NCBI GenBank assembly: GCA_034190625.1
Contig: JAXHSX010000039.1
Coordinates: forward strand, 1 to 31,477
Reading direction: 5' to 3'
DNA from: Chloroflexota bacterium
Lineage (GTDB): Bacteria > Chloroflexota > Dehalococcoidia > GIF9 > AB-539-J10
Length of the DNA stretch: 31,477 nt
The first letter of the stretch is position 1; every line of letters begins with the position of its first letter. The notes under the pieces are model-generated. The model worked only from the letters and a program-made list of their open reading frames with translations. It was not told where the DNA came from and made no database searches. Below, in pieces: positions 1 through 14,890 of the stretch. The translations under genes and the position numbers were made by a program.

Positions 1-466
1 TTGCGGATAGATTTAAGAATATGATAAGTTCAATTATTAGCCAATCGATAATACTTTTTGTGTATTCAATATCAAGAGTCTCAATATTGGTTGCGATATC
101 CTGCCCAAGTTCGGACATCAATCTGCAGAACCGTGTTGGAAGCTTTACTGGAAATGATAGACGCTAGGAGGAAATCTAGGAGCTAATATGCTCCTGAGCT
201 GAAACAAATGTTGCTTGGATTCTATTCGTAGGAGTGGAATTGAGGGACGTTGGGGTTTGCTTTCAATGTTCAGAAATTGGTGAGGTGAGATATTTGACTA
301 TTGCGCCTACGACGTGATAGTGGCTTTGTGGAAGGTGAGGATAACCTGACAAAGGTCGTCATCACATAGCTTATGGATATCGTAACATTGGTAATCTCAA
401 GGAGGATGTTTCTGCAAACAACGAGACAGCTACCAATACTAAGCTGCCAACACTAAGGTTTCACAA

Positions 467-493
467 GGTTTTTACGTCTATTGACGAAAAACC
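467..493 (-). terminator. Possible terminator hairpin downstream of nuoH
   Basis: Plus strand GGTTTTT(A)CGTC-TATT-GACGAAAAACC: an 11-bp stem with one bulge, about 50 nt past the nuoH stop. There is no clear U-tract. Confidence 0.3.
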
Positions 494-542
494 GGTTTCT
501 AGAGATATCATGGGACTTGAAGCATTATTAAAGATTAAGGCG

Positions 543-1514
543 CTATAGTACTCCTGCAAACTTCAGCCCAACAGCTACTAAAAGTTGAATCATTGCTATA
601 GGAGCGAGCCATTTTAGACACATAGTTACCATTTGCTCAATTCTAAGTCTGGCAAACAGCGCTTTAATGCAAGCTAAAATGAAGACAATGAGTAAAGTTT
701 TGATAATAAAGGCAACAAATCCTACTATTGAGGCAGGGATTCCCAATAAGTGTACTCCAGGAATATCAAAGCCGCCCAGAAAGAGGACTGATATCAAAGC
801 TGCTCCCGCCACCATTTCTATATTTATCATTATCCTCATCAAGGCTAACCTTCCGCCAGAATACTCTACCAGGGGGCCGTCAACGATTTCTTGTTCTGCT
901 GTGGGAATATCGAAGGGAATACGTTCTAGCTTACCGACAAGGGCGATAATAGCCACGATAAAAGATAGAGGCAACCAGCAAATAAACCAGACATGACTAA
1001 GTTGATATTGAACGATACCTGACAGGCTCCAGACCCCGGCTACTAAAGCAGGGGAAAGTATTGCCAGGAAGAAGGGGACTTCGTATCCAAAAAGCTGGGT
1101 AAGAACTCTAAAGCCACCAATAGTGCCAAAAGGATTCGTGGAGTGCCATCCAGCTAGGAATAGAAGGAGGGCGGGGAGGGTCAGAAGATAGGCTACCACT
1201 ATTATGTCCCCAGTGAAGGGAAAAACCGAGCTGGAAGACCAAATAGGAATATAAATAAACGCAGTGGCTACAGCCGCAATACCAAATATGGGCACCGCAG
1301 TAAACATCTTTCTATCTGCTTCCTTAGGAACCAACCCTTCCTTGGACAGGAGTTTCCAGAAATCAGCTATGGGCTGATAAAGCGGTGGACCTACCCGATT
1401 CTGCAAGCGAGCGTAAACCTTTCTATCAATGAACTCGCAGAATAGAGAATAGAAAAAGACAAATACGAATCCAGGGAAGACTAGTAAATTAACTATGGCG
1501 ATCCCAACGTTCAT
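543..1514 (-). CDS. nuoH: NuoH/MbhM/HycD-family membrane subunit (323 aa)
   Basis: DRKVYARLQNRVGPP and ERIPFDIPTAEQEIVDGPLVEYSG motifs; multiple hydrophobic helices; GGAG RBS 8 nt upstream of ATG. Confidence 0.92.
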   Translation of the reverse strand: MNVGIAIVNLLVFPGFVFVFFYSLFCEFIDRKVYARLQNRVGPPLYQPIADFWKLLSKEGLVPKEADRKMFTAVPIFGIAAVATAFIYIPIWSSSSVFPFTGDIIVVAYLLTLPALLLFLAGWHSTNPFGTIGGFRVLTQLFGYEVPFFLAILSPALVAGVWSLSGIVQYQLSHVWFICWLPLSFIVAIIALVGKLERIPFDIPTAEQEIVDGPLVEYSGGRLALMRIMINIEMVAGAALISVLFLGGFDIPGVHLLGIPASIVGFVAFIIKTLLIVFILACIKALFARLRIEQMVTMCLKWLAPIAMIQLLVAVGLKFAGVL

Positions 1515-1576
1515 CTCATTTACTCCTTTGCCTATTTTGTCACCCTCAGCTTATTCCTCTACTTTCAAGGGAGAGT

Positions 1577-2221
1577 CTAGGTGAGGGATTCTCCATTTAA
1601 CCATGCTCTTTTATCTGGCCCCCAAAATTTTACAATTTCCTTCGCGATCCATTCTAGTGGAAGATCCGCTTGTGGGCTATATTTCTCCAAATACTCTATA
1701 TATGGGTTGCCATCTAAATCTGTCTGGGGCAGAATCGCATCATGTATTCCGTCAAATTCTACTGTAGGGAGCTTATTCTTCGTACATAGTTCCCTGTCGA
1801 AAGTAGCAGCAGCACTAATCCATTTTCCACTAAGAAAGAACTGGTTATAGCCATGGCGGGGAAAAATGTTTGTGCCCATCTTTTCCATTAGGTGAGCGGG
1901 TATTCTGTGATTTTTAATTTTTGCGAAGGAAAGTCTACTGGGAATTAGTGCAGCTCTGCCTAGTGCTGTCAGAAGCACTGCCTTTTGAACACAGTATCCC
2001 TTCTCTCTTCTGAGTACAGTACTGGCCTTGAAATCCTCGAGAAATACAGACGCCATATAAATATTGTATCGAATTGAATCACGGACGAAATAAAAAAGCT
2101 TGATAACTTTCTCTACCTCGCTCGTACAGTCAAGAGTTAGCTTTTCTGCTAACTCTTGAATCATCTCATGTTCCGAGTCAATAGCTTCTGTAGGTTTCAA
2201 ATAAGACTTAAGATCATCCAT
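1577..2221 (-). CDS. Transglutaminase-like superfamily protein (214 aa)
   Basis: GYCVQKAVLLTALGRAALIP (catalytic Cys motif), RHGYNQF (His), ATFD (Asp); N-terminal YLKPTEAIDSEH segment typical of the family. Confidence 0.85.
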   Translation of the reverse strand: MDDLKSYLKPTEAIDSEHEMIQELAEKLTLDCTSEVEKVIKLFYFVRDSIRYNIYMASVFLEDFKASTVLRREKGYCVQKAVLLTALGRAALIPSRLSFAKIKNHRIPAHLMEKMGTNIFPRHGYNQFFLSGKWISAAATFDRELCTKNKLPTVEFDGIHDAILPQTDLDGNPYIEYLEKYSPQADLPLEWIAKEIVKFWGPDKRAWLNGESLT

Positions 2222-2230
2222 TGTTAAGAG

Positions 2231-2596
2231 CTACCCAACAGGCTGACTTAGCTTATCAGGAGTATATAGCGCCTGCGATTTATCCATTATAGAAATCATA
2301 GCTTCATGGGTCAAGTGAATTGCGTCTCTAGGGCAGTACTCTTCACAAAGCCCACAGAAACAACATTTTCCTAAGTGTATTTGGGGATACTTTTTCCCTT
2401 CATCGACTTCTACAAGCTCGATAGCCTTGTTGGGGCAAGCCAAAGAACATACAGGGCAACCTGTGCATTTCTCCAAGTCTAATAATTGTCTCCCTCTATA
2501 GCCATCTACTGGAGGCAGACTCTGATAGGGAAATTGCAAGGTCATGGGTTTTTTGAACAGATTCCTCATAATAGCAGCAGGTCTAAATATGCTCAT
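2231..2596 (-). CDS. NuoI/MbhN/MbxN-like 2x[4Fe-4S] subunit, module 2 (121 aa)
   Basis: KPMTLQFPY, YRGR, CTGCPVCSLACP and CCFCGLCEEYCP motifs. Confidence 0.9.
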   Translation of the reverse strand: MSIFRPAAIMRNLFKKPMTLQFPYQSLPPVDGYRGRQLLDLEKCTGCPVCSLACPNKAIELVEVDEGKKYPQIHLGKCCFCGLCEEYCPRDAIHLTHEAMISIMDKSQALYTPDKLSQPVG

Positions 2597-2602
2597 TTTA
2601 AC

Positions 2603-3742
2603 TCACCTATCCATATCAGCAGGGCAAGAATCCAAACTCCAGTATATCGCAGGAATGTCTGCTATATATGCTCCCTTGGCCAAATAAGGAAACGCAGCTA
2701 AGTTCTGAGAGAAACTGGGAGCCCTAACTTTTACTCTATAGGGTCTCTCGCTTCCATCGCTTACCATGTGGTAGCAAAATTCACCTCTAGCTGCCTCACA
2801 GCAGAAATAGGCTTCCCCTTTAGCAACTTTTTTAGTTAGACCCCATTTTACCCTAAAATCTCCCTCTGGTATCCTTTCCAGTAATTGCCTGATTATAGAG
2901 ATGCTTTCAATTATTTCCCCTCTTCTACACAAAGCCCGGGAGTAGGCATCTCCTTTTTCAAGAGATACAACTTTGAAATTCACGTAGGGGTAAGCGTCAT
3001 AAGGCTCGTCTTTCCTTACATCGGCTACCACGCCGGATGCTCTCAGATTAGGGCCAGTGATCCCCATCGCTATAGCATCATCAGGTCTAAGGATGCCCAC
3101 ATTTTCCAGCCGCATGACAAATGTAGTATTGTAGAAAACGAGATTATCATAGAGTTTCACTTGATTTTCTGTATAATCAAGCGCCTTCAGGGCTTCTTCC
3201 TTGAACCCTTGAGGTAAATCTCTTCTAACACCACCAGGTATGAAATAGCAAGGATATATTCTGCCCCCGGTTGCTAGCTCATTTAGGCGTATGATCTTTT
3301 CTCTATCCCCCCAAGCGATTCTAGTACCGCTATCAAGACCTAGAGCCATGCACATTATCCCGAGCCATGTTATATGGCTTTGTATTCTCCCCAGCTCTGC
3401 CATTATAGTCCGGATGAATTTACCTCTTTGAGGTGCCTCGATACCGGCGGCTATTTCGACAACATTCGCATATCCCATCTCGCAGGAGAAAGGGTCCAGG
3501 ACATTTATCCTATCAACCAACATAGAATTCTGGGCATGGTTTCTATACTCCATAAGCCTTTCAAAACCTCTATGGAGATACCCTGGATGGAAGGTTAGAT
3601 CAACCACTTCCTCGCCGTCGCATTTTAATGAAACATGCACATGGCCTGAGGCTGGGTGCTGAGGACCAAATGGAATGGTAGTGAAGCTTATTTCCCTTTC
3701 CTCTAATTCACTTTTAGCCAAAATACCCTTTGTCCTCTCCAT
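2603..3742 (-). CDS. NuoD/MbxL(MbsL)-like large subunit without the NiFe-binding CxxC motifs, module 2 (about 379 aa)
   Basis: GPQHP, GYLHRGFE, GGVRRD, EAARGE and C-terminal DSCPADMDR. The L1 position reads DRINVLD and there is no C-terminal extension. Start trimmed from the ORF track to ATG 3742; TTG at 3721 is an alternative. Confidence 0.88.
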   Translation of the reverse strand: MERTKGILAKSELEEREISFTTIPFGPQHPASGHVHVSLKCDGEEVVDLTFHPGYLHRGFERLMEYRNHAQNSMLVDRINVLDPFSCEMGYANVVEIAAGIEAPQRGKFIRTIMAELGRIQSHITWLGIMCMALGLDSGTRIAWGDREKIIRLNELATGGRIYPCYFIPGGVRRDLPQGFKEEALKALDYTENQVKLYDNLVFYNTTFVMRLENVGILRPDDAIAMGITGPNLRASGVVADVRKDEPYDAYPYVNFKVVSLEKGDAYSRALCRRGEIIESISIIRQLLERIPEGDFRVKWGLTKKVAKGEAYFCCEAARGEFCYHMVSDGSERPYRVKVRAPSFSQNLAAFPYLAKGAYIADIPAIYWSLDSCPADMDR

Positions 3743-4199
3743 AATATTCCCTTTTAACATATTCACGGATATCAAAATCTTTTCTAAATGGTGGCAACTC
3801 TTCCCAATCCTCAAGAAACAAGGGGGTGAGGTTTGGGTTTCCTTCAAATTCTACACCAAACATTTCATGACCTTCTCTCTCATGGATTTGTGCTCCTATC
3901 CATAGGTCAATGATCGATTTGATCCTAGGAGATTCTCTAGGAATCCTGGTCTTCACGATCGCTCTTATTTTCTTGCTATGTGACCAAAGATGATAGATCA
4001 GCTCAAATTCTCCTTCATTGATATAATCAACGAGGGCGACATCTGAAAGGTGATCAAATCCCATATCTTTAAGATTAGATAAAATTTGGTGAAATTTTAT
4101 CTCTTTTACAGTGAGTAGAATTTTCTTATCTTCCGAGGCTGAGGAGAGAACCTCCTTGGGGAATTTAGACTCAATGGCGGAGATAATTTCGTTGTCCAT
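3714..4199 (-). CDS. NuoC/MbxK-like subunit, module 2 (about 161 aa)
   Basis: GFDHLSDVALVDY, HEREGHEMFGVEFEGNP, PFRKDF. Start trimmed to ATG 4199, which has a GAAGGT RBS and sits just after the upstream stop. Confidence 0.88.
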   Translation of the reverse strand: MDNEIISAIESKFPKEVLSSASEDKKILLTVKEIKFHQILSNLKDMGFDHLSDVALVDYINEGEFELIYHLWSHSKKIRAIVKTRIPRESPRIKSIIDLWIGAQIHEREGHEMFGVEFEGNPNLTPLFLEDWEELPPFRKDFDIREYVKREYYGEDKGYFG

Positions 4200-4200
4200 A

Positions 4201-4650
4201 TTAATGACCTTCAAATCCGCCTTTTATAGCATTCATAGCCATAACTATTCCGTGACCAATATTCTCAGGTTTAGGAGGGCAACCAAGAATCCACATATCC
4301 ACGGGTATGTAGTCATCTATCCGCTTTACAGTAGCATAGGAATCCCAGTACATCCCGCCTGTCATAGGGCAGCTTCCTAAGGCTAAAACATATTTGGGCG
4401 AAGCCATTTGGTCATAGATCATCTTTATACGCTTAACAGCCTTCTTGGTTACATATCCTGCTACGATAAGGACATCAGCATGCCTAGGAGTTGGTACAGC
4501 TAATATTCCAAATCTTTCCATGTCATAGCCAGATCCCACCCAGGGAAGCAATTCCATAAATCCACAAGCGGAGAAGTAATTGATAGCCCATAAGGAATAG
4601 GTGCGCGCTTCAGCTGTGGATTTTATCGCTCGCGGAGTTAAACTCTTCAT
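4201..4650 (-). CDS. NuoB/MbxJ-like Fe-S subunit with only three cluster Cys, module 2 (149 aa)
   Basis: FSACGFME, TPRHADVL, ALGSCPMTGG, GCPPKPE; GGAGG RBS. Confidence 0.88.
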   Translation of the reverse strand: MKSLTPRAIKSTAEARTYSLWAINYFSACGFMELLPWVGSGYDMERFGILAVPTPRHADVLIVAGYVTKKAVKRIKMIYDQMASPKYVLALGSCPMTGGMYWDSYATVKRIDDYIPVDMWILGCPPKPENIGHGIVMAMNAIKGGFEGH

Positions 4651-4705
4651 TTATCAGCCTCCGATACGTGCGCTATCTGATTCGACCATTCTGTATTCAT
4701 AGTCT

Positions 4706-5239
4706 TCAAGATCGGTATCCTTGAGTCATGGCCTCCAATGAATTGCCAAGCACTTCCTTAAATAAAAGTACCAGTTCATCAAGGGAACATTCGACTTCAC
4801 TTGATATTGTAGTGCCGAAAGAGAGCATCTTCGGCTGAATACCTAAAACAATCATTTCTGAGCCGAGTTCTTTTTTAAGGTAATTGATTAACAAGTATAG
4901 AGGGAGGGAATGAGTAGATGGCATTGTCTCCTCTATTTCGTGGTCTTTAATTAGCTTGATCGTGCCGGCTTTTCCTCCTATTTCTGCAGCATCTATAAGC
5001 AATATATGGGAAGGAGATAGCCTGCGTAGCAATCCAGTGAAGTTCTCTGGAGCGTTTCCTGTAGCCAAAACTTCAACGTTCGGTATTTCTGCCAAAGCCT
5101 CTTTGAGCTTCTTCGCTGCCGATAGTCCCAGGGCATCATCGCCACCTAATTCGTTGCCAACGCCCAAAACGACAATTCGTCTCCAGCCACTTAAGGCTTC
5201 CTCAATCCCATTTTTCAAGTTACTTTGAGTAATTACCAT
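4706..5239 (-). CDS. hycI: HycI-type hydrogenase maturation endopeptidase (177 aa)
   Basis: GVGNELGGDDALG, PENFTG, LIDAA, STHSLPL; start overlaps the upstream stop (ATGGTAA). Confidence 0.9.
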   Translation of the reverse strand: MVITQSNLKNGIEEALSGWRRIVVLGVGNELGGDDALGLSAAKKLKEALAEIPNVEVLATGNAPENFTGLLRRLSPSHILLIDAAEIGGKAGTIKLIKDHEIEETMPSTHSLPLYLLINYLKKELGSEMIVLGIQPKMLSFGTTISSEVECSLDELVLLFKEVLGNSLEAMTQGYRS

Positions 5240-5592
5240 TGTTTTGATATTAATGATTCCTTGTCATAGCTGGCAAGCTCAAATTCCTCTGAAAGAGTAA
5301 TTGCCCCGAAGGGACAACTTTCAGCACACTGCCCACAAAATGCGCACCTGTAGAGGAGAAAAACAGGCCGGCTTTCCTCTTCTCCTACCTGCTCCATAAT
5401 TATCGCCTTAGCAGGACAGTCCGTAGCACATAATCCCTTGCACTTTAGTGAGCACTTCTCTGGATCGTATATAGGTCTGCCACGAAAATTCTTGGGAATA
5501 TCCAGTCTCTCGAAAGGATAGAGCACTGTAGCTCTCTTTTTAAACAGATACCTGCTAATCTCGGGGAACATAGCGCCGATTTTCGACATCAC
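5233..5592 (-). CDS. NuoI/MbhN-like 2x[4Fe-4S] subunit, module 1 (119 aa)
   Basis: ATVLYPFE, FRGRP, CSLKCKGLCATDCP, CAFCGQCAESCP; GTGA overlap with the large-subunit stop. Confidence 0.9.
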   Translation of the reverse strand: MMSKIGAMFPEISRYLFKKRATVLYPFERLDIPKNFRGRPIYDPEKCSLKCKGLCATDCPAKAIIMEQVGEEESRPVFLLYRCAFCGQCAESCPFGAITLSEEFELASYDKESLISKQW

Positions 5593-6809
5593 ACTCTCCT
5601 AGCCTCTCCCTTCAATGGAGAGGGAGATTGGTACCTATCAGAGTACCATTTCATGCTGTATTTCCTTAGCTCTTCCCAGCTTATTGCTTGTTTTTCTTTT
5701 CTATTTCTATTCTCACTGTCAAGAATCATGATCCTATCCATACAGGCCATGCATGGATCGATTGCTGCAAATACGATAGGAATATCAGCAATATATCCGC
5801 CCTTGAGGCAATGAAGCACTGAGGTGATATTTGCCAGAGTAGGCGTCCTAACCTTGAGCCTTTCTGGATGATCAGTACCATTACTCCTGATATAGTGAAG
5901 CAATTCTCCTCTAGGGGCTTCAGTCTTGCTTACTACCTCGCCCGCGGGTACCTTGCGCGGTGCTTTGGTTCTGAATTCCCCCTCGGGCAACTCTTCAATT
6001 ATTTGGCGGCACATCTTGCAACTCTCAATTACTTCTAATACTCTGACAACGGTTCTTCCTAAGACATCGCCAAGGTCTGAGGTGACAACCTTGAAATCCA
6101 GATATGGATAGGCAGCGTACGGGTCATCTCTACGAACATCATATTCTACACCAGAGCCTCTGGCGGTAGGACCGCAAGCGCAAAGTTCTATCGCCTTTTC
6201 CTTGGGGAGCAATCCTACTCCTTCGGTTCTGCGCAGGAAAGTGACCTCTGTACTAGCTACCCCAAGATAATATTCAGTTCTTTCCTTGAGTTGCTGAATG
6301 CCCTTTAAGATTTGGGGTTTCATCTCATCAGTTATATTGCGTCTTACCCCGCCGATAGTATTCATGCCATAGTTAACCCTGTTGCCTGAGATAATCTCGA
6401 GTAGATCCATAACTATTTCTCGATCTCTCCAGCTATACATAAACAGAGTATCGAATCCCAGTTCGTGTCCCGCTACTCCGAGCCAAAGGAGATGGCTATG
6501 TATTCTTTCTAATTCGCAGACTAAGGTACGGATATAAAGTCCCCTTTTCGGAACTTCCAAACCGAGTAACTCCTCTACCCCTTGGCAAAAAGTCGTGGAG
6601 TGTATATGAGAGCATATTCCACAGATCCTCGCGGTAAGATAGATATCTTGGATATAATTTCCCAGTTCGCCAGCCTTCTCAATTCCGCGGTGGTTATATC
6701 CCAGACGTACACCTATATCTACTATTGTTTCCCCATCTACAGTGACTGTCAGATTAATGGGTTCTTTCAGTGCCGGATGTTGTGGACCGATAGGAATAGT
6801 GACAGCCAT
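5589..6809 (-). CDS. Group 4 (Mbh/4g-like) [NiFe] hydrogenase large subunit, module 1 (406 aa)
   Basis: IPIGPQHPALKEP, L1 RICGICSHIH, EAPRGE, L2 DPCMACMDR, followed by a cleavable C-terminal extension. Confidence 0.95.
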   Translation of the reverse strand: MAVTIPIGPQHPALKEPINLTVTVDGETIVDIGVRLGYNHRGIEKAGELGNYIQDIYLTARICGICSHIHSTTFCQGVEELLGLEVPKRGLYIRTLVCELERIHSHLLWLGVAGHELGFDTLFMYSWRDREIVMDLLEIISGNRVNYGMNTIGGVRRNITDEMKPQILKGIQQLKERTEYYLGVASTEVTFLRRTEGVGLLPKEKAIELCACGPTARGSGVEYDVRRDDPYAAYPYLDFKVVTSDLGDVLGRTVVRVLEVIESCKMCRQIIEELPEGEFRTKAPRKVPAGEVVSKTEAPRGELLHYIRSNGTDHPERLKVRTPTLANITSVLHCLKGGYIADIPIVFAAIDPCMACMDRIMILDSENRNRKEKQAISWEELRKYSMKWYSDRYQSPSPLKGEARRV

Positions 6810-6810
6810 T

Positions 6811-7275
6811 TCAGCCCTCCTTAACCTCGACCTTGTAATCCTTTCTCAAAGGATAGACCCCTTCCTCCCAATCGTCTGGGAGAATCAATCTCCTAGGATC
6901 GGGGTGGTCTTTCACCTTTAAACCTAGTAGATCCTGTATCTCTCGCTCATAAAGAATGGCGCCAGGCATGACCGGGGTAATAGTATCAAGTACAGGATTT
7001 GTCTTAGGGACAAAAGTGCTTAAGCTGATGGTTACTCCCTGGCAAAAGAAGTGATACAAGACCTCAATATCCTCTCCCACATCGACTGCAGTTATGGTGG
7101 TAATGTGGACCATGCCAAAACTTTGCTTGAGATAATCGATGACTTCCTTAACCTTGGGCAAGGGAATTCGAACAAATATTCTGCGTTCCCGAGGTATCCT
7201 AACTTTGAGGATTTGCTCGCCGAAAGTCTCTTTGAGTTTGTTCTCGACATCACTCGCCACTGACATGAATTTCAT
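6811..7275 (-). CDS. NuoC/MbhK-like subunit, module 1 (154 aa)
   Basis: HITTITAVD, YEREIQDLLG, HPDPRRL, YPLRK. Confidence 0.9.
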   Translation of the reverse strand: MKFMSVASDVENKLKETFGEQILKVRIPRERRIFVRIPLPKVKEVIDYLKQSFGMVHITTITAVDVGEDIEVLYHFFCQGVTISLSTFVPKTNPVLDTITPVMPGAILYEREIQDLLGLKVKDHPDPRRLILPDDWEEGVYPLRKDYKVEVKEG

Positions 7276-7735
7276 TTTTCCTTTTCAGTTCTTCCAAAAG
7301 TTGGTTATAACTGGGATCAAGATCTCCCAGAAGCTTTACTACCCCATGGATGATGGCATCGGGTCGGGGGGGGCAACCAGGTATATATACATTCACCGGG
7401 ATTGCCTTATCTATGCCACCTAGGACGTTATAGCAGCCCCAAAACACATCACCGGAGCAAGCGCAGGAACCAATAGCTATAACGAACTTCGGGTCAGGCA
7501 TCTGCTCGTATATTCTAACAGCTCTATTCTTCATTTGCCTGGTTATCGGGCCGCAGCACAGAAGGACATCAGCATGTCTCGGGGTTCCCTTAAGCAATAT
7601 ACCAAACCTTTCAATATCAAACCTCGGCATAAGGGCAGCAAGGGTTTCAATGTCACAACCATTGCAGCCACCGGTGTTTAGGTGACATACCCATGGTGAT
7701 TTCACTCTGGACCACTTGGTCAAACTTTCAAGCAT
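7250..7735 (-). CDS. Group 4 hydrogenase small subunit (NuoB/MbhJ-like), module 1 (161 aa)
   Basis: GGCNGCDIE (CxxC), TPRHADVL, IGSCACSG, PGCPPRP: four cluster Cys. Confidence 0.93.
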   Translation of the reverse strand: MLESLTKWSRVKSPWVCHLNTGGCNGCDIETLAALMPRFDIERFGILLKGTPRHADVLLCCGPITRQMKNRAVRIYEQMPDPKFVIAIGSCACSGDVFWGCYNVLGGIDKAIPVNVYIPGCPPRPDAIIHGVVKLLGDLDPSYNQLLEELKRKNEIHVSGE

Positions 7736-7778
7736 GAATAAACTCCCTGCATCGTCTCATGGAGGCGGCGCGATGTTT

Positions 7779-8099
7779 TCAATCAGTGAGCAAAATTACT
7801 ACTGTTATCAAAGCGATGACTAAATAAATAATGCCTATCCAAGCAATCCTACCACTTGGTACAGTGGCAATTACCAGGGCAGCTACGTGCAATATGGTAA
7901 AGAAAAAGGCAAAATGAAAGAAGCGGTAATTATGCTGTACTTTCCCTCCTGGAATATCTTCTCCACAAGCATAAGTGCTTAGCTTTCCTTCCTCCATGCT
8001 TGGTTTCGGCCCCAGGGATTTGCTCAATCTGTAAACCAAGTAACCGATAACTAAGAATATTAGGAAGGCAACTGGCGGATAGAGAAGAAATTGACTCAT
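7779..8099 (-). CDS. nuoA: NuoA-like membrane subunit (106 aa)
   Basis: Three hydrophobic helices; loop GKLSTYACGE matches the NuoA YECG loop. Confidence 0.8.
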   Translation of the reverse strand: MSQFLLYPPVAFLIFLVIGYLVYRLSKSLGPKPSMEEGKLSTYACGEDIPGGKVQHNYRFFHFAFFFTILHVAALVIATVPSGRIAWIGIIYLVIALITVVILLTD

Positions 8100-9572
8100 T
8101 TAGCTTCCTCCTAAACTGGTTATCATGAAGCTTACCACGGGATCAACTATTTTCAAACCCAGCTCGGGATATACGCCAAGTGCTACAGTGAGGATGACCA
8201 TTATAATTATAGGTATATATATAGATGGTGGAATTCCCTTTGCCTCCTTGGCTTTTTCCGAGATATCACTGGAGAAGAGGATCTTATTGATAGCTGGCAA
8301 ATAGTATACGAGAGAGAGCACACTATTTACTATGAGTAGGATCATGGCCACAATGCCCCAACCACCGACGTCGACACCTGCTCTACAGATGAAGAATTTA
8401 CTGATAAAGCCATTGAGCGGAGGCACACCAGCTAGTGCAAACCCAAAGAAGGCAAAGGCAACGCCAATCAATGGCAATTTACGCCCTATTCCCCGCATCT
8501 CCTCCAAATCCCTGGTTCCGATAGAATAAATAATAGCCCCAGCGCATAAAAAGGCTCCACCTTTTATCACAGCATGGTTTAGTATATGTAGAAATCCTCC
8601 GCGGAATCCATATTCGCCACCGGTGGAAAGATACGCGAAAGCTAATCCTACCCCCAATAAGATATATCCCATCTGAGCAATACTGGAATAAGCCAACATT
8701 CGTTTCAGGTCTCGCTGCACTATAGCTATGAAGTTGCCTACGAACATGCTGACGATGCCGAAGATAATTAATACCACTCCAGAATTGACTCCTGGTAATA
8801 CAGCCAGTGCTTTGATCATGGCGATGAATCCCGCTCCGATAATTATCCCTGACAACATGGCGCTTATTCCACTGGGAGCAGCACTATGCGCATCGGGGAG
8901 CCATGTGTGGAGAGGTACTATAGCTGCCTTTACCCCGAAGCCAATAATGATGAGTACAACCGCACCGATTGCCGTTAGAGAATCCATACCAGCAGTTAAA
9001 TTGGCTAAGATAGCGAGGTCTAAACTTCCGGTATACATGAATATCAGCGAGATGCCCATAAGAGCCATAAGGGAACCAGCAACGCTCATAAAGATATATT
9101 TTATCGCTGCTTCTATGGGTTCCCACCTATCTTTCTCGAAAGCAACTAAGACATAAGAAGGGATAGCCATAACCTCGAAGAAAACAAACATGTTAAATAA
9201 ATCACCAGCAAATCCAATTCCCACAATGCCGGCGATCATAATGAGCAAAAGGCTATAATATCTACCTAAACCATCAAAATGTTCCATATAGCTTATAGAG
9301 AAGAGGGATACTAATGCTCCAAGTCCCACCGCTACGAGTCCCAGGAATATAGCTAGACCATTGGCTTCAAGATAGGTTTGAGCTCCCCCGATGGACCATG
9401 TTAGTAACTCTGTTCCAGAACGAAGTGTGAAGATCTGGATGCCCGAGATCACTAAGAAGATAAAAGAAACGACTCCGGTATACTTAGGCTTGGGCAGCAG
9501 GCGAGCAAAAAGATAGCTTACGAGGGCTCCGATAAACAAGGTGATGATAGGTACAAGAGGTGTTACATTCAT
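8100..9572 (-). CDS. Antiporter-like proton-pumping subunit (NuoM/N, MbhH, HyfB family; about 490 aa)
   Basis: FVFFEVM, EAAIKY, KAAIVPLHTWLPDAHSAAPSGISA, KRMLAYSSI, GVPPLNGFISK. Start trimmed to ATG 9572. Confidence 0.9.
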   Translation of the reverse strand: MNVTPLVPIITLFIGALVSYLFARLLPKPKYTGVVSFIFLVISGIQIFTLRSGTELLTWSIGGAQTYLEANGLAIFLGLVAVGLGALVSLFSISYMEHFDGLGRYYSLLLIMIAGIVGIGFAGDLFNMFVFFEVMAIPSYVLVAFEKDRWEPIEAAIKYIFMSVAGSLMALMGISLIFMYTGSLDLAILANLTAGMDSLTAIGAVVLIIIGFGVKAAIVPLHTWLPDAHSAAPSGISAMLSGIIIGAGFIAMIKALAVLPGVNSGVVLIIFGIVSMFVGNFIAIVQRDLKRMLAYSSIAQMGYILLGVGLAFAYLSTGGEYGFRGGFLHILNHAVIKGGAFLCAGAIIYSIGTRDLEEMRGIGRKLPLIGVAFAFFGFALAGVPPLNGFISKFFICRAGVDVGGWGIVAMILLIVNSVLSLVYYLPAINKILFSSDISEKAKEAKGIPPSIYIPIIIMVILTVALGVYPELGLKIVDPVVSFMITSLGGS

Positions 9573-9658
9573 TACTCTTTCGCTCCACTTGAGTTGCTTC
9601 GCTTTAGCCGCAATACCATTACTTTGTTTCCAATCCGTTTTAATTCTTGGTTCTTCAT
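9572..9658 (-). CDS. Putative 28-aa bridging mini-ORF (MKNQELKRIGNKVMVLRLKRSNSSGAKE)
   Basis: The ATG overlaps the nuoL-like stop (ATGA) and its TAA overlaps the next ATG (TAATG). It fills the gap exactly. Confidence 0.3.
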   Translation of the reverse strand: MKNQELKRIGNKVMVLRLKRSNSSGAKE

Positions 9659-11430
9659 ACTGTCCAAACAAGTAGCAACACCAGGAATATGACAAACCCA
9701 ATGACTATTCCTAAGTTGTTATAATTCAAGTCTCCAGTTTGTATTCTCCTGAATTGCTGCCAAAACCTAAAGAGACCTCTAACACATTTATTATAGAAAA
9801 TATCAAACCAATAGGCTTTCATTAGAGGCAAAGTTAAAGCAGAGGGCTTTCTAAATGCATTGATGACAGTTGCCTTCCATTTTATGGTAAGTAGGGCTAT
9901 CAGAATGGCTACGCCAACGGTAATCCAGATAGTGGGACCGGCGAAGGCATGCTGGATGAAGTTCCCTAAAGTAATATGTGCTATGGAATAATGAGGAAGG
10001 GAAGAGGCCATGCTGGCGGTATAAGGTGATATGTAAAGCCAGAATAAAAGAGATGCCGCAGCCAACACTATCAGTGGTACTGTCATCTGCCAGGGCGCCT
10101 CGTGGATCTTCACCTTGCTTCTTCTATCACCCTGGAAAGTGAGCCAGTACATTCGCCAGGAGTAGGCAGCGGTTAAAAATGCCGTTATAGCAAGAAGTGC
10201 GAAAGCCTCATATAACCCTCCCGCGTGTAAATGTGCCAGAATCATGTGTTTAGAGAAGAAACCAGTCAAGACAGGAATTCCTACCAATGAGAGGAGACCG
10301 AGAATAGCGCAAATGTGGGTAATCTTCATGTGCTTGCGCAATCCTCCCATTTCACGCATGTCCTTGGTTCCTGTTACATAAATTATGGCGCCAGCGCAAA
10401 GGAACAAGAGGGCTTTGAATATTCCGTGAGATAAAAGATAGAATTTACTGGCTAGAATTGCGCCTGCTCCGATGGCTGCCATCATGTATCCCAGTTGGCT
10501 GATAGTGGAGTAGGCGAGCACCCGTTTAATATCCCATTCTGTTAAGGCTATAGTGGCTGCCAGGAATGCAGTTATAGTACCAATCCACAGTATCGCTGTA
10601 GACCACCCAGCTAATCCCATAAAGATAGGATAGCTACGAGCGAGCAGATATACTCCAGCATTGACTAAACAAGCAGCATGGATCAGAGAAGTAATCGTCG
10701 TGGGAGCCACCATAGCATCAGGTAACCAAACGTGAAGAGGAAATTGGGCTGACTTGCCCACTGCCCCTGCGATAAATCCGGCACCCGCTAGTCCAAGAAG
10801 GACAGGAGAGACGGTACTCGCGACGTTCATTATCTCGAAGACGTTGAGGCTTCCTGTAGCGTGCCATAGGATCAATATTCCAGCTAAGAATCCAATATCC
10901 CCTATCCTTGTTACGATAAACGCTTTGGTTCCCGCAGGTATCGGTTCGGGATCGTGGTAGTAGTAACCAATCAAAGCATAAGAGCAAAAACCAATGATCT
11001 CCCAGAAGATGTACATAACCAAAAGGTTACTGGTTAAAGCCAGACCAATCATGCCGCCGATGAAGAACAAGGTCTGCCAGTAGTATCGTGAAAGAGAATA
11101 CTCATGCTCAGCGTGCTTCATATAGCGTATGGAGTATAATAGAGCCAACGCTCCAATACACCCGGCAATTATGGCGACAAAGACACTTAAAGAGTCAAGA
11201 CAAATCCCTAGGCTGATATTTGCTCCCGGTATCCACAGAAAGTCATTGACGCTACCTTCTGTAATAGAAGGAATGAGTGATAGAGTTAAACCAGCGGTGA
11301 TAAATCCCAGAGTAATGGCATATATAGTTCTCGCTTTGGGGCTTATCTTCTCGACAACGTAACAAAAAGGCCCGCCTATTATCGGTATGACTACAGCCAG
11401 TATAGCGATTAGTGTGCTGCTTTCCATCAT
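9655..11430 (-). CDS. nuoL: NuoL-like antiporter subunit (591 aa)
   Basis: FWEIIGFCSYALIGY, TRIGD, GKSAQFPLHVWLPDAM, IKRVLAYSTISQLG, HGIFKALLFL, GFFSK, C-terminal QTG. Confidence 0.92.
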   Translation of the reverse strand: MMESSTLIAILAVVIPIIGGPFCYVVEKISPKARTIYAITLGFITAGLTLSLIPSITEGSVNDFLWIPGANISLGICLDSLSVFVAIIAGCIGALALLYSIRYMKHAEHEYSLSRYYWQTLFFIGGMIGLALTSNLLVMYIFWEIIGFCSYALIGYYYHDPEPIPAGTKAFIVTRIGDIGFLAGILILWHATGSLNVFEIMNVASTVSPVLLGLAGAGFIAGAVGKSAQFPLHVWLPDAMVAPTTITSLIHAACLVNAGVYLLARSYPIFMGLAGWSTAILWIGTITAFLAATIALTEWDIKRVLAYSTISQLGYMMAAIGAGAILASKFYLLSHGIFKALLFLCAGAIIYVTGTKDMREMGGLRKHMKITHICAILGLLSLVGIPVLTGFFSKHMILAHLHAGGLYEAFALLAITAFLTAAYSWRMYWLTFQGDRRSKVKIHEAPWQMTVPLIVLAAASLLFWLYISPYTASMASSLPHYSIAHITLGNFIQHAFAGPTIWITVGVAILIALLTIKWKATVINAFRKPSALTLPLMKAYWFDIFYNKCVRGLFRFWQQFRRIQTGDLNYNNLGIVIGFVIFLVLLLVWTV

Positions 11431-11736
11431 TTATCCGCGAAGTTTCTTGAGGTCATCAATGTCAAGAGTTCCTGTATGTCGGTAAGACCTTACTATCAAA
11501 GCCATGGCAACAGCGGCAGTAATTGCTTCAATGACTATGATGGTTATCACGATAGCCTGGGCGATTTGCTCGTTGCCCTGGAAAAAACCGGCGAGAATAA
11601 AGCTCAAGGTAACTCCTTTGGCAATTACCTCAATGCCGATGAGTAACTGAACTATGTTCTTTCTGGCTATCAGACAATAAATCCCAATGCCGATAAGTAT
11701 GACAATGGCCAGCATGTAAAGTTGCCACAAGTTCAT
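11431..11736 (-). CDS. nuoK: NuoK/MnhC-like subunit (101 aa)
   Basis: Three helices with GIE and IEA conserved Glu; ends TLDIDDLKKLRG; ATGA coupled to the upstream gene. Confidence 0.9.
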   Translation of the reverse strand: MNLWQLYMLAIVILIGIGIYCLIARKNIVQLLIGIEVIAKGVTLSFILAGFFQGNEQIAQAIVITIIVIEAITAAVAMALIVRSYRHTGTLDIDDLKKLRG

Positions 11737-11960
11737 CGCTGTATCCTTTCCTTGACTAGTGTGAGAATGCCGAGGGTTCCTGATAAAATGATTAACAATT
11801 GTAGGAAAACATCAAGCGAGCGAAATTCCCAGAGTGCTTGGCTGAATGACTTAGCAACAGTGAGGCTAATATCAGGCTGGGGTGGAGGAATAAGTAGTGC
11901 AATAGAAAAGCCGATGAAAACCAAGGTTGCTATTATACCTATTATCTCTTTTGTATTCAT
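11733..11960 (-). CDS. Small membrane subunit, MbhE/MnhB N-terminal-like (NuoJ C-half equivalent; 75 aa)
   Basis: Two hydrophobic helices; WEFRSLDVFLQ resembles the xxRxxDTxxE motif. Confidence 0.65.
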   Translation of the reverse strand: MNTKEIIGIIATLVFIGFSIALLIPPPQPDISLTVAKSFSQALWEFRSLDVFLQLLIILSGTLGILTLVKERIQR

Positions 11961-11961
11961 T

Positions 11962-12228
11962 TTACTTTCTTTTGGTTAAGCTGATGACAGAGACAAATAA
12001 AGCTGTAATCAATCCGGCGCAGATAGAAAGTTCAAATACTCCAGCGTAGGGAGAGTCAAGCTTGAAAAATATTATTGCTATCATTACGCTCAACACTGCC
12101 AGTGAAATGGCAGAAAAAAGCATTTCTTTGAAGCGTACTGCCAAAACAGCCGAGGCAATAGCGGCAATAATTAAAACGATACTGATAGCGTCAATTGGCA
12201 CTAGCTTTGCCTCCAAAGGTGCTTCCAT
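11962..12228 (-). CDS. DUF4040/MbhD-like small membrane subunit (NuoJ N-half equivalent; 88 aa)
   Basis: Three helices; LDSPYAGVFELSICAG resembles the APxxAxxExxVGAG motif. Confidence 0.7.
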   Translation of the reverse strand: MEAPLEAKLVPIDAISIVLIIAAIASAVLAVRFKEMLFSAISLAVLSVMIAIIFFKLDSPYAGVFELSICAGLITALFVSVISLTKRK

Positions 12229-12389
12229 TCCCCCAAGGGTTTTTTCTCAGCAGGATAAAAGAAGCAACTATAAAATCCACAGTGGTGGGGAATAACGTCT
12301 CTGCTCGGTTTGCAGTTTCTGACTCCTATAAAAATCAGGACGATAAGAATAGGAATACAGGTAGAGAGTATAATCAGCGCATCTGTCAC
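12201..12389 (-). CDS. Small single-TM Cys/His-rich hypothetical protein (62 aa), first ORF after the promoter
   Basis: GTG start with GGAGGG RBS; hydrophobic N-terminus; overlaps the next gene by 28 nt. Confidence 0.45.
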   Translation of the reverse strand: MTDALIILSTCIPILIVLIFIGVRNCKPSRDVIPHHCGFYSCFFYPAEKKPLGEWKHLWRQS

Positions 12390-12427
12390 TGGTTTTTCCC
12401 TCCACTAATCATAATACAGATATGTAT

Positions 12428-12456
12428 ATTATAAACAGGTTTTAAAGCATCGTCAA
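12428..12456 (-). promoter_or_regulatory. Sigma70-type promoter of the membrane-complex operon
   Basis: Minus strand TTGACG (12456-12451), N17, TATAAT (12433-12428). Confidence 0.8.
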
Positions 12457-12541
12457 TGGGTCTTTGAAGCGTAGATAGAAAAATATTAAAGAGTCTCTAC
12501 CATTTTTAGGTTGATAGCAAGGGAGATATAGATGTAACGTC

Positions 12542-12970
12542 CTAAACTATCATGGCTATCTTAAATAATCGCTGGGTATCCGTATGTAGCTCTTGCCATA
12601 TCTTGGGAATATTATCCTGTTCTATCCACAAAGCCTCGCCAACATCGCTATCTGCCCTGAGTTCTCCGCCCAACAACCTGGCGATATAATCAATATAGAT
12701 AACATGTAAGGTAGTTTTTTTATGAATTTTAACAATACGATCGAAGGAAACTAAAGGGGTGATCAGTTCTATCTCCAGATTTGTCTCTTCTTTAACCTCT
12801 CTTCTAATCCCTTCTATAATTTCCTCACCGTACTCAAGTTTTCCTCCTGGGCAAATCCATTTTCCTTGCCAGTAACCACCTCGCTCCTTCTTGTGTCTCA
12901 CGATAAGTATTCTATCTTTATCATCCTTGATAATTGCTCCAACAGCTACTAGTATATGTTCCGCTGTCAC
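12542..12970 (-). CDS. Nudix hydrolase (142 aa)
   Basis: Nudix box GGKLEYGEEIIEGIRREVKEETNL; GTG start 2 nt after the protease stop. Confidence 0.92.
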   Translation of the reverse strand: MTAEHILVAVGAIIKDDKDRILIVRHKKERGGYWQGKWICPGGKLEYGEEIIEGIRREVKEETNLEIELITPLVSFDRIVKIHKKTTLHVIYIDYIARLLGGELRADSDVGEALWIEQDNIPKIWQELHTDTQRLFKIAMIV

Positions 12971-12972
12971 CT

Positions 12973-13431
12973 TTAACCTCGAATGGTTTCTTCCATGACC
13001 ATCCTAACCGCTTCAGGAATAACTCGCTCTACGTCGGGTGTGCATTTCTCACTAAACTTAGTAACGTCTTTTACTTCTATAGCGAATATGGTGATCTTTC
13101 GGGGCATTGGTAAGTTAAGTAGCTTGCCTAATTCTAGAGCAGTGACTAAGTTTATTTGATGGGGTGATGAAGGATGTTTAGCAAAGGAGAAATCTTGCGG
13201 TTCCATACAATATATCTGGCCTACTTTTCCTTCCTTAGTTTGGATGGCATCAATAATAATAACTTCGTCATAGCCTACGACATAATCTAAAAAGCTGAGG
13301 CCAGCTAAACTCGACTCAGCTACAGTAACTTGGGGGTTACTAAAGGTCTTGCTTATTTCTTGTACTACCCTAATACCTACAGCGTCGTCACAAAGAATGG
13401 GATTTCCCAGTCCTAGAATCAATGTTTTCAT
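12973..13431 (-). CDS. HyaD/HupD-type hydrogenase maturation protease (152 aa)
   Basis: LGLGNPILCDDAVG, IIIDAI, SPHQINL. Confidence 0.92.
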   Translation of the reverse strand: MKTLILGLGNPILCDDAVGIRVVQEISKTFSNPQVTVAESSLAGLSFLDYVVGYDEVIIIDAIQTKEGKVGQIYCMEPQDFSFAKHPSSPHQINLVTALELGKLLNLPMPRKITIFAIEVKDVTKFSEKCTPDVERVIPEAVRMVMEETIRG

Positions 13432-13467
13432 TTCGCTTCATGAAACATTAGTTGATTCGCCCTGTAA

Positions 13468-13695
13468 TTATGAGTGTAGCGAAAGATCGCATTGTTTAGG
13501 TAATGTAATAGCCCTAAACTTGAAATTCTTGCCTCTTGACTTTCCGCCAAGATCAAGCAATTGAGCCAAGGTTTTAGCCTCTCTCAAGCCTCGTGGTGGT
13601 TGGGTACAGCCATCGCAGCCTGTGATTAGAATGGAATTGTAAGGGGACAGGAAATCGAAAATTTCATCTAAAGGTTTTTGACTTGTTATTATCAC
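13468..13695 (-). pseudogene. metV: Truncated metV copy (75 aa; 5' third only)
   Basis: Near-identical to the first ~70 aa of the 20410..21057 product, then diverges after KQCD and stops. The C-terminal Fe-S/Zn domain is missing. Confidence 0.85.
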
Positions 13696-13708
13696 TGCCT
13701 AGTCTCCT
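13486..13708. repeat. Direct repeat copy A (223 bp)
   Basis: Aligns ungapped to 20848..21070 with 10 mismatches by manual count. Confidence 0.95.
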
Positions 13709-14858: not shown

Positions 14859-14890
14859 TCAATCCTCTCCTTTTTAATTATTTTGGAGAA

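What the first reader, a model, noticed from the sequence alone, without database searches (positions are those of the whole stretch)
4201..4650. NuoB-like subunit with only three cluster cysteines
Seen: the first motif is FSACGFME with one Cys. The paralogue B1 has GCNGCDIE, and NuoB has tandem CC. The whole protein contains only three Cys (SAC, GSC, GCPP). Inference: the terminal cluster facing D2 is a [3Fe-4S] cluster, a site-differentiated [4Fe-4S] cluster with an open iron for substrate binding, or takes its fourth ligand from a D2 Cys. Any of these would be unusual active-site chemistry.
Basis: partly seen in the sequence, partly recalled or inferred. Interest (0 to 1): 0.62.

Follow-up and report, generated by a model that had tools for sequence, protein, structure and literature searches.

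The report
MBS-type three-cysteine iron-sulfur subunit
This gene encodes the small iron-sulfur subunit of a complex-I-like enzyme whose last cluster is held by three cysteines instead of four, a feature already shown by structure and experiment in the archaeal sulfur reductase MBS, so it is a real and conserved but known kind of active site.

Summary
The 149-aa NuoB-like protein B2 (4201-4650, minus strand) has exactly three Cys: C29, C94 and C124.

It is not an assembly error or strain-specific decay. About 90 homologues from independent assemblies carry the same single-Cys motif N[YW]F[NT][SA]CGFxE. Contigs from other samples agree at these codons. dN/dS against an orthologue is 0.045.

The best solved relative is MbsJ of Pyrococcus furiosus MBS (6u8y_J, E 2e-41, ungapped alignment). 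B2's three Cys align with MbsJ C28/C93/C123. These are the only ligands of the published site-differentiated proximal [4Fe-4S] cluster, whose open iron reduces polysulfide (PMC7684303). B2 Phe26 replaces MbsJ C25, a non-ligand whose C25A mutant stays active. Gly30 replaces the second tandem Cys of NuoB and is invariant in 65 of 65 three-Cys sequences.

A tree places B2's clade as the well-supported sister group of the MBS J-subunit clade, not inside it. Many MBS-clade proteins also lack C25 (Gly instead).

The D2 'FSCE' Cys is absent from the six other B2-type loci sampled, including a 71%-identical D2 orthologue, so it is not a conserved fourth ligand.

Verdict: a new member of a known kind, with modest interest. 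The substrate is inferred, not shown.

The parts
4201..4650 (-). B2: NuoB/MbsJ-like subunit, 149 aa, predicted carrier of the proximal [4Fe-4S] cluster
   Evidence: ORF. Pfam PF01058, 85.8 bits. Best PDB hit 6u8y_J, E 2e-41. AF2 model with pLDDT 86.6.
4564..4566 (-). Codon of Cys29 (TGT), first cluster ligand; aligns with MbsJ C28, NdhK C52 and Nqo6 C45
   Evidence: Ungapped alignment. Invariant in 65 of 65 sequences.
4561..4563 (-). Codon of Gly30 (GGA), at the position of the second tandem Cys of NuoB/NdhK; its absence leaves one iron without a Cys ligand
   Evidence: alignments to NdhK (CC) and MbsJ (CG). Gly in 65 of 65 three-Cys sequences, Cys in the CC trio.
4573..4575 (-). Codon of Phe26 (TTC), at the position of the vestigial non-ligand Cys25 of MbsJ (first Cys of the hydrogenase CxxC)
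   Evidence: alignment. Phe in 31 of 32 B2-type sequences; G19/C13/V1 in the MBS clade. No variant in contigs of other samples.
4369..4371 (-). Codon of Cys94 (GSCP), second ligand; aligns with MbsJ C93
4279..4281 (-). Codon of Cys124 (GCPP), third ligand; aligns with MbsJ C123
3714..4214 (-). C2: NuoC/MbsK-like subunit of the same peripheral module
   Evidence: Pfam PF00329, 116 bits. Syntenic with B2-type genes in L002-L007.
2603..3742 (-). D2: NuoD/MbsL-like subunit that forms the pocket under the B2 cluster. No [NiFe] CxxC pairs; the start codon is uncertain (ATG at 3742 used).
   Evidence: Best PDB hit 6u8y_L, E 6.5e-83. MbsL C85 aligns with Asn in D2, the FSCE Cys aligns with MbsL P92, and C385 is kept as DSCP. 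Conservation.
2231..2596 (-). I2: NuoI/MbsN-like 2x[4Fe-4S] ferredoxin-type subunit that would feed electrons to the B2 cluster
   Evidence: Pfam Fer4 families. Two CxxCxxCxxxCP motifs are visible in the translation.
543..1514 (-). NuoH/MbsM-like membrane anchor, the only one found in the 71%-complete genome
   Evidence: PF00146, 264 bits. The own-genome search finds one copy.
7779..12228 (-). Membrane arm genes: MbhD-like, a 75-aa ORF, NuoK-like, two antiporter-like subunits (591 and 533 aa) and NuoA-like
   Evidence: Pfam. The same order K-L-N-A runs directly into B2 in the related contig L001.

Best explanation
B2 is the J-type (NuoB-like) subunit of a ferredoxin-driven, MBS/Mbx-like peripheral module (B2-C2-D2-I2) that sits on a complex-I-like membrane arm.

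Proposed mechanism (inferred by homology): B2 binds the proximal [4Fe-4S] cluster through Cys29, Cys94 and Cys124 only. The fourth iron has no cysteine ligand, for two reasons. The position of NuoB's second tandem Cys is an invariant Gly (G30). [quoted passage not shown] Electrons arrive from the two [4Fe-4S] clusters of I2. The site-differentiated iron faces the chamber formed by B2, D2 and NuoH, and is the likely place where substrate is bound and reduced. In P. furiosus MBS that substrate is polysulfide.

Shown here: the three-Cys pattern, its conservation and its homology to the MBS ligands.

Inferred: that the cluster is 4Fe, that the open iron is catalytic, and that the substrate is sulfane sulfur. 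The stated confidence (0.75) is for the cluster type; I give the sulfane-sulfur substrate about 0.35-0.4.
For: -: the best solved relative is 6u8y_J (144.6 bits, against 122.5 for NdhK). The alignment is ungapped over residues 15-145. B2 C29/C94/C124 align with MbsJ C28/C93/C123, and F26 with C25.
- (PMC7684303, PMC8165549): in MBS only C28, C93 and C123 ligate the cluster. The C25A and MbsL C85A/C385A mutants stay active. Ferricyanide converts the cluster to [3Fe-4S] with about 98% loss of activity, and Fe2+ restores it.
- the motif is conserved in about 90 homologues and G30 is invariant in 65 of 65.
- B2 is a net three residues shorter than B1 in this loop, as described for MBS against MBH.
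- careful tree with the motif columns removed. The MBS clade and the B2-type clade are sisters (99/90*), separate from Nuo/Ndh/Fpo and from hydrogenase types.
- both clades share the GGMYWDSY signature without the one-residue insertion seen in NdhK.
- D2 matches MbsL best (E 6.5e-83). It has Val at the position of the quinone-binding Tyr87 of Nqo4, and a gap at His38.
- dN/dS is 0.045.
- a confident model shows the helix, strand, short loop and helix arrangement around C29.
Against: - B2 lies outside the MBS clade proper (that clade has 100/98* support and excludes B2).
- The margin over NdhK in the PDB search is small: 22 bits, against 86 or more for true MBS-clade proteins.
- The membrane arm has a NuoA-like subunit and no MrpE/F/G-like genes, unlike P. 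furiosus MBS.
- D2 lacks the MbsL C85 equivalent at its usual place.
- The invariant Phe26 and Phe31 replace small residues of MBS and could change access to the open iron.
- A CC-bearing lineage (P0043, P0118, P0128) is nested in the B2-type clade with the same kind of D subunit, so three or four Cys may not decide function here.
- There are no biochemical data for any member of this clade.
- A non-Cys ligand (water, hydroxide, Asp, Glu, Ser) cannot be seen from sequence.
Confidence: 0.75

Rival explanations
1. The cluster is a normal electron-transfer [4Fe-4S] cluster. Its fourth ligand is a protein residue other than a B2 Cys, for example the conserved C-terminal Cys of D2 (DSCP, equivalent to MbsL C385) or an Asp, Glu or Ser. 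Catalysis would then happen elsewhere in the D2 pocket.
For: Both relic Cys of the D subunit are kept wherever covered in the partners of B2-type proteins: the C85 equivalent at 7 of 7 distinct places and the C385 equivalent at 7 of 7. They are often lost in partners of MBS-clade proteins, where the C385 equivalent becomes Y, N, V, A or T. This suggests they matter in this clade.
Against: In the homologous MBS structure these Cys lie about 12 A from the cluster, and the C85A/C385A mutant is fully active. In the window the C85-equivalent Cys has moved seven residues, to the position of MbsL P92. The FSCE Cys is absent from all other B2-type loci sampled, which is hard to reconcile with a fixed ligand geometry. 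G30 is invariant, which suggests selection for an empty site.
Confidence: 0.13
2. The native cofactor is a [3Fe-4S] cluster, as expected from three Cys ligands. It acts as a higher-potential electron relay.
For: Three-Cys sites commonly hold 3Fe clusters. MBS itself converts to [3Fe-4S]+ on oxidation.
Against: In MBS the 3Fe form is inactive and the as-isolated reduced enzyme shows three interacting [4Fe-4S] clusters. The organism comes from anoxic marine sediment samples, where oxidative loss of iron is unlikely.
Confidence: 0.08
3. The missing Cys is an assembly error, or decay of a redundant paralogue made dispensable by the neighbouring hydrogenase module.
For: The genome is a 71%-complete MAG. 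A second, complete B1-D1 module lies in the same operon.
Against: About 90 independent homologues share the motif. Contigs from two other samples cover these codons and agree there, and a diverged contig from a third encodes the same motif. dN/dS is 0.045. The related contig L001 has B2 as the only module behind nuoA. The ORF is intact and has a Shine-Dalgarno sequence.
Confidence: 0.01

Closest known systems
[quoted passage not shown]
   Same: 47% identity and an ungapped alignment. The same three ligand Cys. Gly after the first ligand Cys. The same short loop. The shared GGxYWDxY signature. Its partner D subunit matches MbsL best. The two form sister clades at 99/90*.
   Different: B2 lacks the vestigial Cys25 (Phe instead) and has Phe31 where MbsJ has Gly. 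It has GCPP where the MBS clade has GCMP. It falls outside the MBS clade. The membrane arm has a NuoA-like subunit and no MrpEFG-like genes. The host is a mesophilic-sediment bacterium, not a hyperthermophilic archaeon. Substrate unknown.
NuoB / Nqo6 / NdhK, the carrier of cluster N2 in complex I and photosynthetic NDH-1
   Same: The same fold (TM about 0.82, rmsd 1.6-1.7 A) and the same loop length. The first tandem Cys, the GxC Cys and the GCPP Cys are conserved. NCBIfam names B2 NuoB at subfamily level.
   Different: The second tandem Cys (Nqo6 C46, NdhK C53) is Gly. No equivalog-level NuoB model is passed. Partner D2 lacks the quinone-site Tyr and His. B2 lacks the one-residue insertion of NdhK after GGM.
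MbhJ and other group 4 [NiFe]-hydrogenase small subunits (PDB 6CFW chain J; the window's own B1)
   Same: Homologous fold and operon role. The two C-terminal ligand Cys are shared.
   Different: Hydrogenase types have CxxC in a loop three residues longer and four Cys ligands. Their partner carries the [NiFe] CxxC pairs (D1 does, D2 does not). They form a separate clade (99/94*).

Membership tests
MBS/Mbx J subunit (MbsJ) | Three Cys at the positions of MbsJ C28, C93 and C123, the only ligands of the proximal cluster | tested here: met
   alignment: C29, C94 and C124. Ligand assignment from PMC7684303.
MBS/Mbx J subunit (MbsJ) | Non-Cys (Gly) at the position of the second tandem Cys of NuoB | tested here: met
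   (CG against CC in NdhK). G30 invariant in 65 of 65.
MBS/Mbx J subunit (MbsJ) | Cluster-binding loop three residues shorter than in MBH-type small subunits | tested here: met
   against B1, a gap of four residues and an insertion of one, net three. The alignment to MbsJ is ungapped.
MBS/Mbx J subunit (MbsJ) | Falls inside the clade that holds P. furiosus MbsJ | tested here: not met
   the MBS clade (100/98*, including P0121, which matches 6u8y_J at 364 bits) excludes B2. B2's clade is its sister (joint clade 99/90*).
MBS/Mbx J subunit (MbsJ) | Partner L subunit keeps two of the four [NiFe] Cys (MbsL C85 and C385) | tested here: inconclusive
   The C385 equivalent is present (DSCP). The C85 position is Asn, with a Cys seven residues later. 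Other B2-type loci have the canonical pair.
MBS/Mbx J subunit (MbsJ) | Mrp-type membrane arm with MbsA/B/C (MrpE/F/G-like) subunits and two antiporter-like pumps | tested here: inconclusive
   Two antiporter-like subunits, MbhD-like and NuoK-like genes are present. No MrpE/F/G family hit, and a NuoA-like gene is present instead. Only the window was scanned.
MBS/Mbx J subunit (MbsJ) | Ferredoxin-dependent polysulfide (sulfane sulfur) reduction at the unique iron | not testable with these tools
   Needs enzyme assays and spectroscopy.
NuoB (complex I cluster N2 subunit) | Tandem CC motif giving four Cys ligands | tested here: not met
   B2 has ACG, not ACC.
NuoB (complex I cluster N2 subunit) | Passes curated NuoB models | tested here: inconclusive
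   The subfamily models NF005012 and TIGR01957 are passed. All equivalog models fall far below their cut-offs.
NuoB (complex I cluster N2 subunit) | Partner NuoD with the quinone-binding Tyr87 and His38 (Nqo4 numbering) | tested here: not met
   alignment to 2fug_4: Val at the Tyr87 position and a gap at His38.
Group 4 [NiFe]-hydrogenase small subunit | CxxC motif, and a partner large subunit with RxCGxC and DPCxxC | tested here: not met
   B2 has a single Cys. D2 has RINV...FSCE and DSCPAD. By contrast, B1 and D1 meet both.

The most novel reading that the evidence does not exclude
The F..CG clade (N[YW]F[NT][SA]CGFxE) may be a distinct, uncharacterised family of ferredoxin-driven, complex-I-like ion pumps. 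It is found in MAGs from anoxic sediments labelled Dehalococcoidia, Bathyarchaeia, Altiarchaeales, Heimdallarchaeota and others. Its three-Cys catalytic cluster is flanked by two invariant Phe residues, and its partner subunit always keeps the two relic Cys. It may act on a substrate other than polysulfide. In this MAG it may share one membrane arm with a [NiFe] hydrogenase head.
Probability: 0.25. Interest if true: 0.6.

Novelty: new member of a known kind. Interest (0 to 1): 0.3.

Why it matters
The result places the one experimentally established example of catalysis by a three-Cys, site-differentiated [4Fe-4S] cluster in a complex-I-like enzyme (P. furiosus MBS) in a wider setting.

- The same ligand set defines a sister family that is common in uncultured sediment bacteria and archaea. 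Standard annotation hides it under the name 'NuoB'.
- Natural replacement of the vestigial Cys (Phe in this clade, Gly in many MBS-clade proteins) independently supports the published finding that MbsJ C25 is dispensable.
- The invariant Gly at NuoB's second-Cys position gives a simple sequence marker, C-G against C-C against CxxC, for sorting NuoB homologues into MBS-like, quinone/NDH-like and hydrogenase-like classes in metagenomes.

The result does not reveal new chemistry.

Tried and rejected
I used genome-contig loci and relatives' genomes instead.
- The genome-contig scan was swamped by NuoB/NdhK because one search pattern was GCPP[RK]PE. Only L001-L007 were B2-type.
- Foldseek against the PDB does not separate MBS from complex I subunits. 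All score TM about 0.82, so fold gives no membership information.
- No coordinates were available and no multimer prediction was offered. Distances from D2 Cys, F26 or F31 to the cluster could not be measured.
- The P. furiosus MbsJ sequence could not be put in the tree directly. Its near-identical cluster representative P0121 stood in for it.
- Literature searches for MbxJ/MbxL and for MBS-like complexes in MAGs found no description of this clade. An Asgard preprint discusses other complex-I-like hydrogenases.
- No RNA holder was listed among the sequencing runs, so nothing can be said about expression.
- The laid runs were contigs, not raw reads, and depth at the motif codons was only 3-5x.
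- One B2-type row (P0054) grouped with Fpo-like proteins in the quick trees. I left it out of the careful tree, together with the unstable rows P0044, P0050, P0130, P0131 and P0138. The long-branch rows P0095 and P0105 had already been dropped from the second tree.

Full report
**1. Observation**

The minus-strand ORF at 4201-4650 encodes a 149-aa protein of the NuoB family (Pfam PF01058, 85.8 bits). A GGAGG sequence lies 7 nt upstream of the ATG.

The protein has exactly three cysteines:
- C29 in FSACGFME
- C94 in GSCP
- C124 in GCPP

The paralogue B1 (7250-7735) has GCNGCDIE and nine Cys.

**2. Real or artefact**

A search of 5.8 billion proteins returned 117 homologues. Of these, 88, plus B2 itself, have Phe at position 26. 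Those that cover the motif carry the single-Cys form [NT][AS]CGFxE and the other two Cys, with very few exceptions.

Contigs from other samples were laid on the gene. A contig from another sample of the source study (X3) and one from a second study (X4) cover codons 26-30 (4561-4575) and list no difference there. A diverged contig from a third study (X5) reads WVINYFSACG. These are assembled contigs at low depth, not raw reads.

dN/dS against the orthologue in L001 (84% identity) is 0.045.

**3. What it is**

[quoted passage not shown] The match has E 2e-41 and 144.6 bits, and is ungapped over residues 15-145. NdhK follows at 122.5 bits.

In that alignment the residues correspond as follows:
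- B2 C29, C94 and C124 align with MbsJ C28, C93 and C123.
- B2 F26 aligns with MbsJ C25.
- B2 G30 aligns with the second tandem Cys of NdhK and NuoB.

The MBS structure paper (PMC7684303) reports the following:
- The proximal [4Fe-4S] cluster is bound by C28, C93 and C123 only.
- The C25A mutant and the MbsL C85A/C385A mutant keep activity.
- Ferricyanide converts the cluster to [3Fe-4S], with about 98% loss of activity that Fe2+ reverses.

A review restates the three-Cys coordination (PMC8165549). B2 is likewise a net three residues shorter than B1 in this loop.

The AF2 model (pLDDT 86.6) shows helix 12-18, strand 20-26, a loop of one or two residues, and helix 28-38. This is the arrangement described for MbsJ. 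Foldseek finds all NuoB-like chains at TM about 0.82, with 6u8y_J the most identical at 47%. Fold therefore confirms the superfamily but does not discriminate within it.

**4. Family picture**

Loci from reference genomes and 50%-identity representatives sort NuoB homologues into motif classes:

| Class | Motif | Notes |
|---|---|---|
| Hydrogenase | CxxC..E | longer loop |
| Nuo/Ndh/Fpo | CC..E | tandem Cys |
| MBS-like | [FY][CG]TGCG[AI]xE | position 25 is G19, C13, V1 |
| B2-type | N[YW]F[NT][SA]CGFxE | position 26 is Phe in 31 of 32 |

P0121 (AFCTGCGGIE) matches 6u8y_J at 364 bits, and a G-variant (P0125) matches at 222 bits. The MBS-like class therefore holds the characterised enzyme.

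Gly after the ligand Cys is invariant in all 65 three-Cys sequences. Both classes share GGMYWDSY.

A careful IQ-TREE analysis with the motif columns removed and rooted on the hydrogenase type gives:
- the MBS clade at 100/98*
- the B2-type clade at 98/86*
- the two together at 99/90*, apart from Nuo/Ndh/Fpo

B2 is thus a member of the sister family of MBS J subunits. The three-Cys state is most simply ancestral to both families.

One nested lineage (P0043, P0118, P0128) has the tandem CC. P0118 is an I-B-D fusion protein with an MbsL-like D domain. The fourth Cys can therefore be regained, or was retained, within this family.

**5. Partner subunit and the 'D2 ligand' idea**

D2 matches MbsL best (E 6.5e-83). 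The equivalent of MbsL C385 is kept, as DSCP. MbsL C85 aligns with Asn in D2, and the FSCE Cys aligns with MbsL P92.

At six other distinct B2-type places the D partner has the canonical Cys at the C85 position and no Cys at the FSCE position. This includes L002, which is 71% identical to D2. The FSCE Cys therefore cannot be a conserved cluster ligand.

The C385-equivalent Cys is kept in every B2-type partner that covers it, so conservation alone does not exclude it. However, its MBS counterpart lies about 12 A from the cluster and is dispensable.

D2 also has Val at the position of the quinone-binding Tyr87 of Nqo4, and a gap at His38.

**6. Context**

The window is a whole contig of a 1.25-Mb, 71%-complete MAG. 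Its relatives are labelled Dehalococcoidales. The runs that hold the sequence are marine and marine-sediment metagenomes.

The operon on the minus strand, from 12228 to 543, reads:
- MbhD-like, a 75-aa ORF, NuoK-like
- two antiporter-like subunits and NuoA-like
- B1-C1-D1-I1-HycI
- B2-C2-D2-I2
- a transglutaminase-like gene
- NuoH

In the closest contig, L001, NuoA is followed directly by B2. The membrane arm therefore belongs with the B2 module, and the hydrogenase cassette looks inserted. Earlier notes of this scan had already flagged the two-headed operon and the MBS-like D2.

**7. Mechanism and verdict**

The most likely reading has confidence of about 0.75 for the cluster type. B2 holds a site-differentiated [4Fe-4S] cluster with three Cys ligands. 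I2 feeds it electrons, and its open iron faces the B2/D2/NuoH chamber. By analogy with MBS, that iron reduces sulfane sulfur. The substrate is uncertain (about 0.35-0.4) for four reasons:
- The clade is distinct from MBS.
- It has invariant Phe26 and Phe31.
- It has a different membrane arm.
- It lives in a different host.

The rivals are a non-B2 fourth ligand, a native 3Fe cluster, and an artefact. They are listed separately with their tests.

The feature is real and conserved, but its chemistry was published in 2020. It is a new member of a known kind, of modest interest.

Noticed in passing
window 4706-7735, compared with L001:4495-5273: The [NiFe] hydrogenase cassette B1-C1-D1-I1-HycI sits between the nuoA-like gene and B2. 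In the closest related contig, L001 (B2 84% identical; K, L, N and A 66-75%), nuoA is followed directly by B2 after a 66-nt spacer. The cassette therefore looks like an insertion into an MBS-like operon.
   Followed up: partly
L104 (G018:C6) 6600-16100; L105 (G007:C94) 1-8500: Same-family genomes also place an MBS-like module next to an MBH-like module, in the other order (B2-like C D I H, then B1-like C D H I). There each module has its own nuoH. The window's genome has only one nuoH.
   Followed up: partly
P0118 (668 aa), P0043, P0128: A lineage nested in the B2-type clade carries the tandem CC (NYFTGCCFIE). P0118 is a single polypeptide that fuses a NuoI-like 2x[4Fe-4S] domain, the NuoB-like domain and an MbsL-like D domain (RICV..., NCPAD), with no C subunit.
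   Followed up: partly
window 2603-3742 (D2), compared with L002-L007 and L104-L107: Partners of B2-type J subunits keep both relic Cys (the MbsL C85 and C385 equivalents) at every distinct place sampled, seven including the window, wherever the alignment covers them. The window is the one case where the first Cys is shifted seven residues. Partners of MBS-clade J subunits often lost them: the C385 equivalent becomes Y, N, V, A or T.
   Followed up: partly
window 4201-4650, compared with G007, G009, G014, G015 and G018: The window's B2 (NYF subtype) is only 56-60% identical to the B2-type genes of its own family (NWF subtype). It is 75-89% identical to proteins in MAGs labelled Bathyarchaeota, Aminicenantes, Eubacteriales or Dehalococcoidales. 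The distribution is patchy, which suggests lateral transfer or mis-binning.
   Followed up: no
window 4201-4650: NCBIfam subfamily models would name this protein 'NADH-quinone oxidoreductase subunit NuoB', and public sources do so for its homologues. The three-Cys MBS-like nature is invisible in standard annotation.
   Followed up: yes
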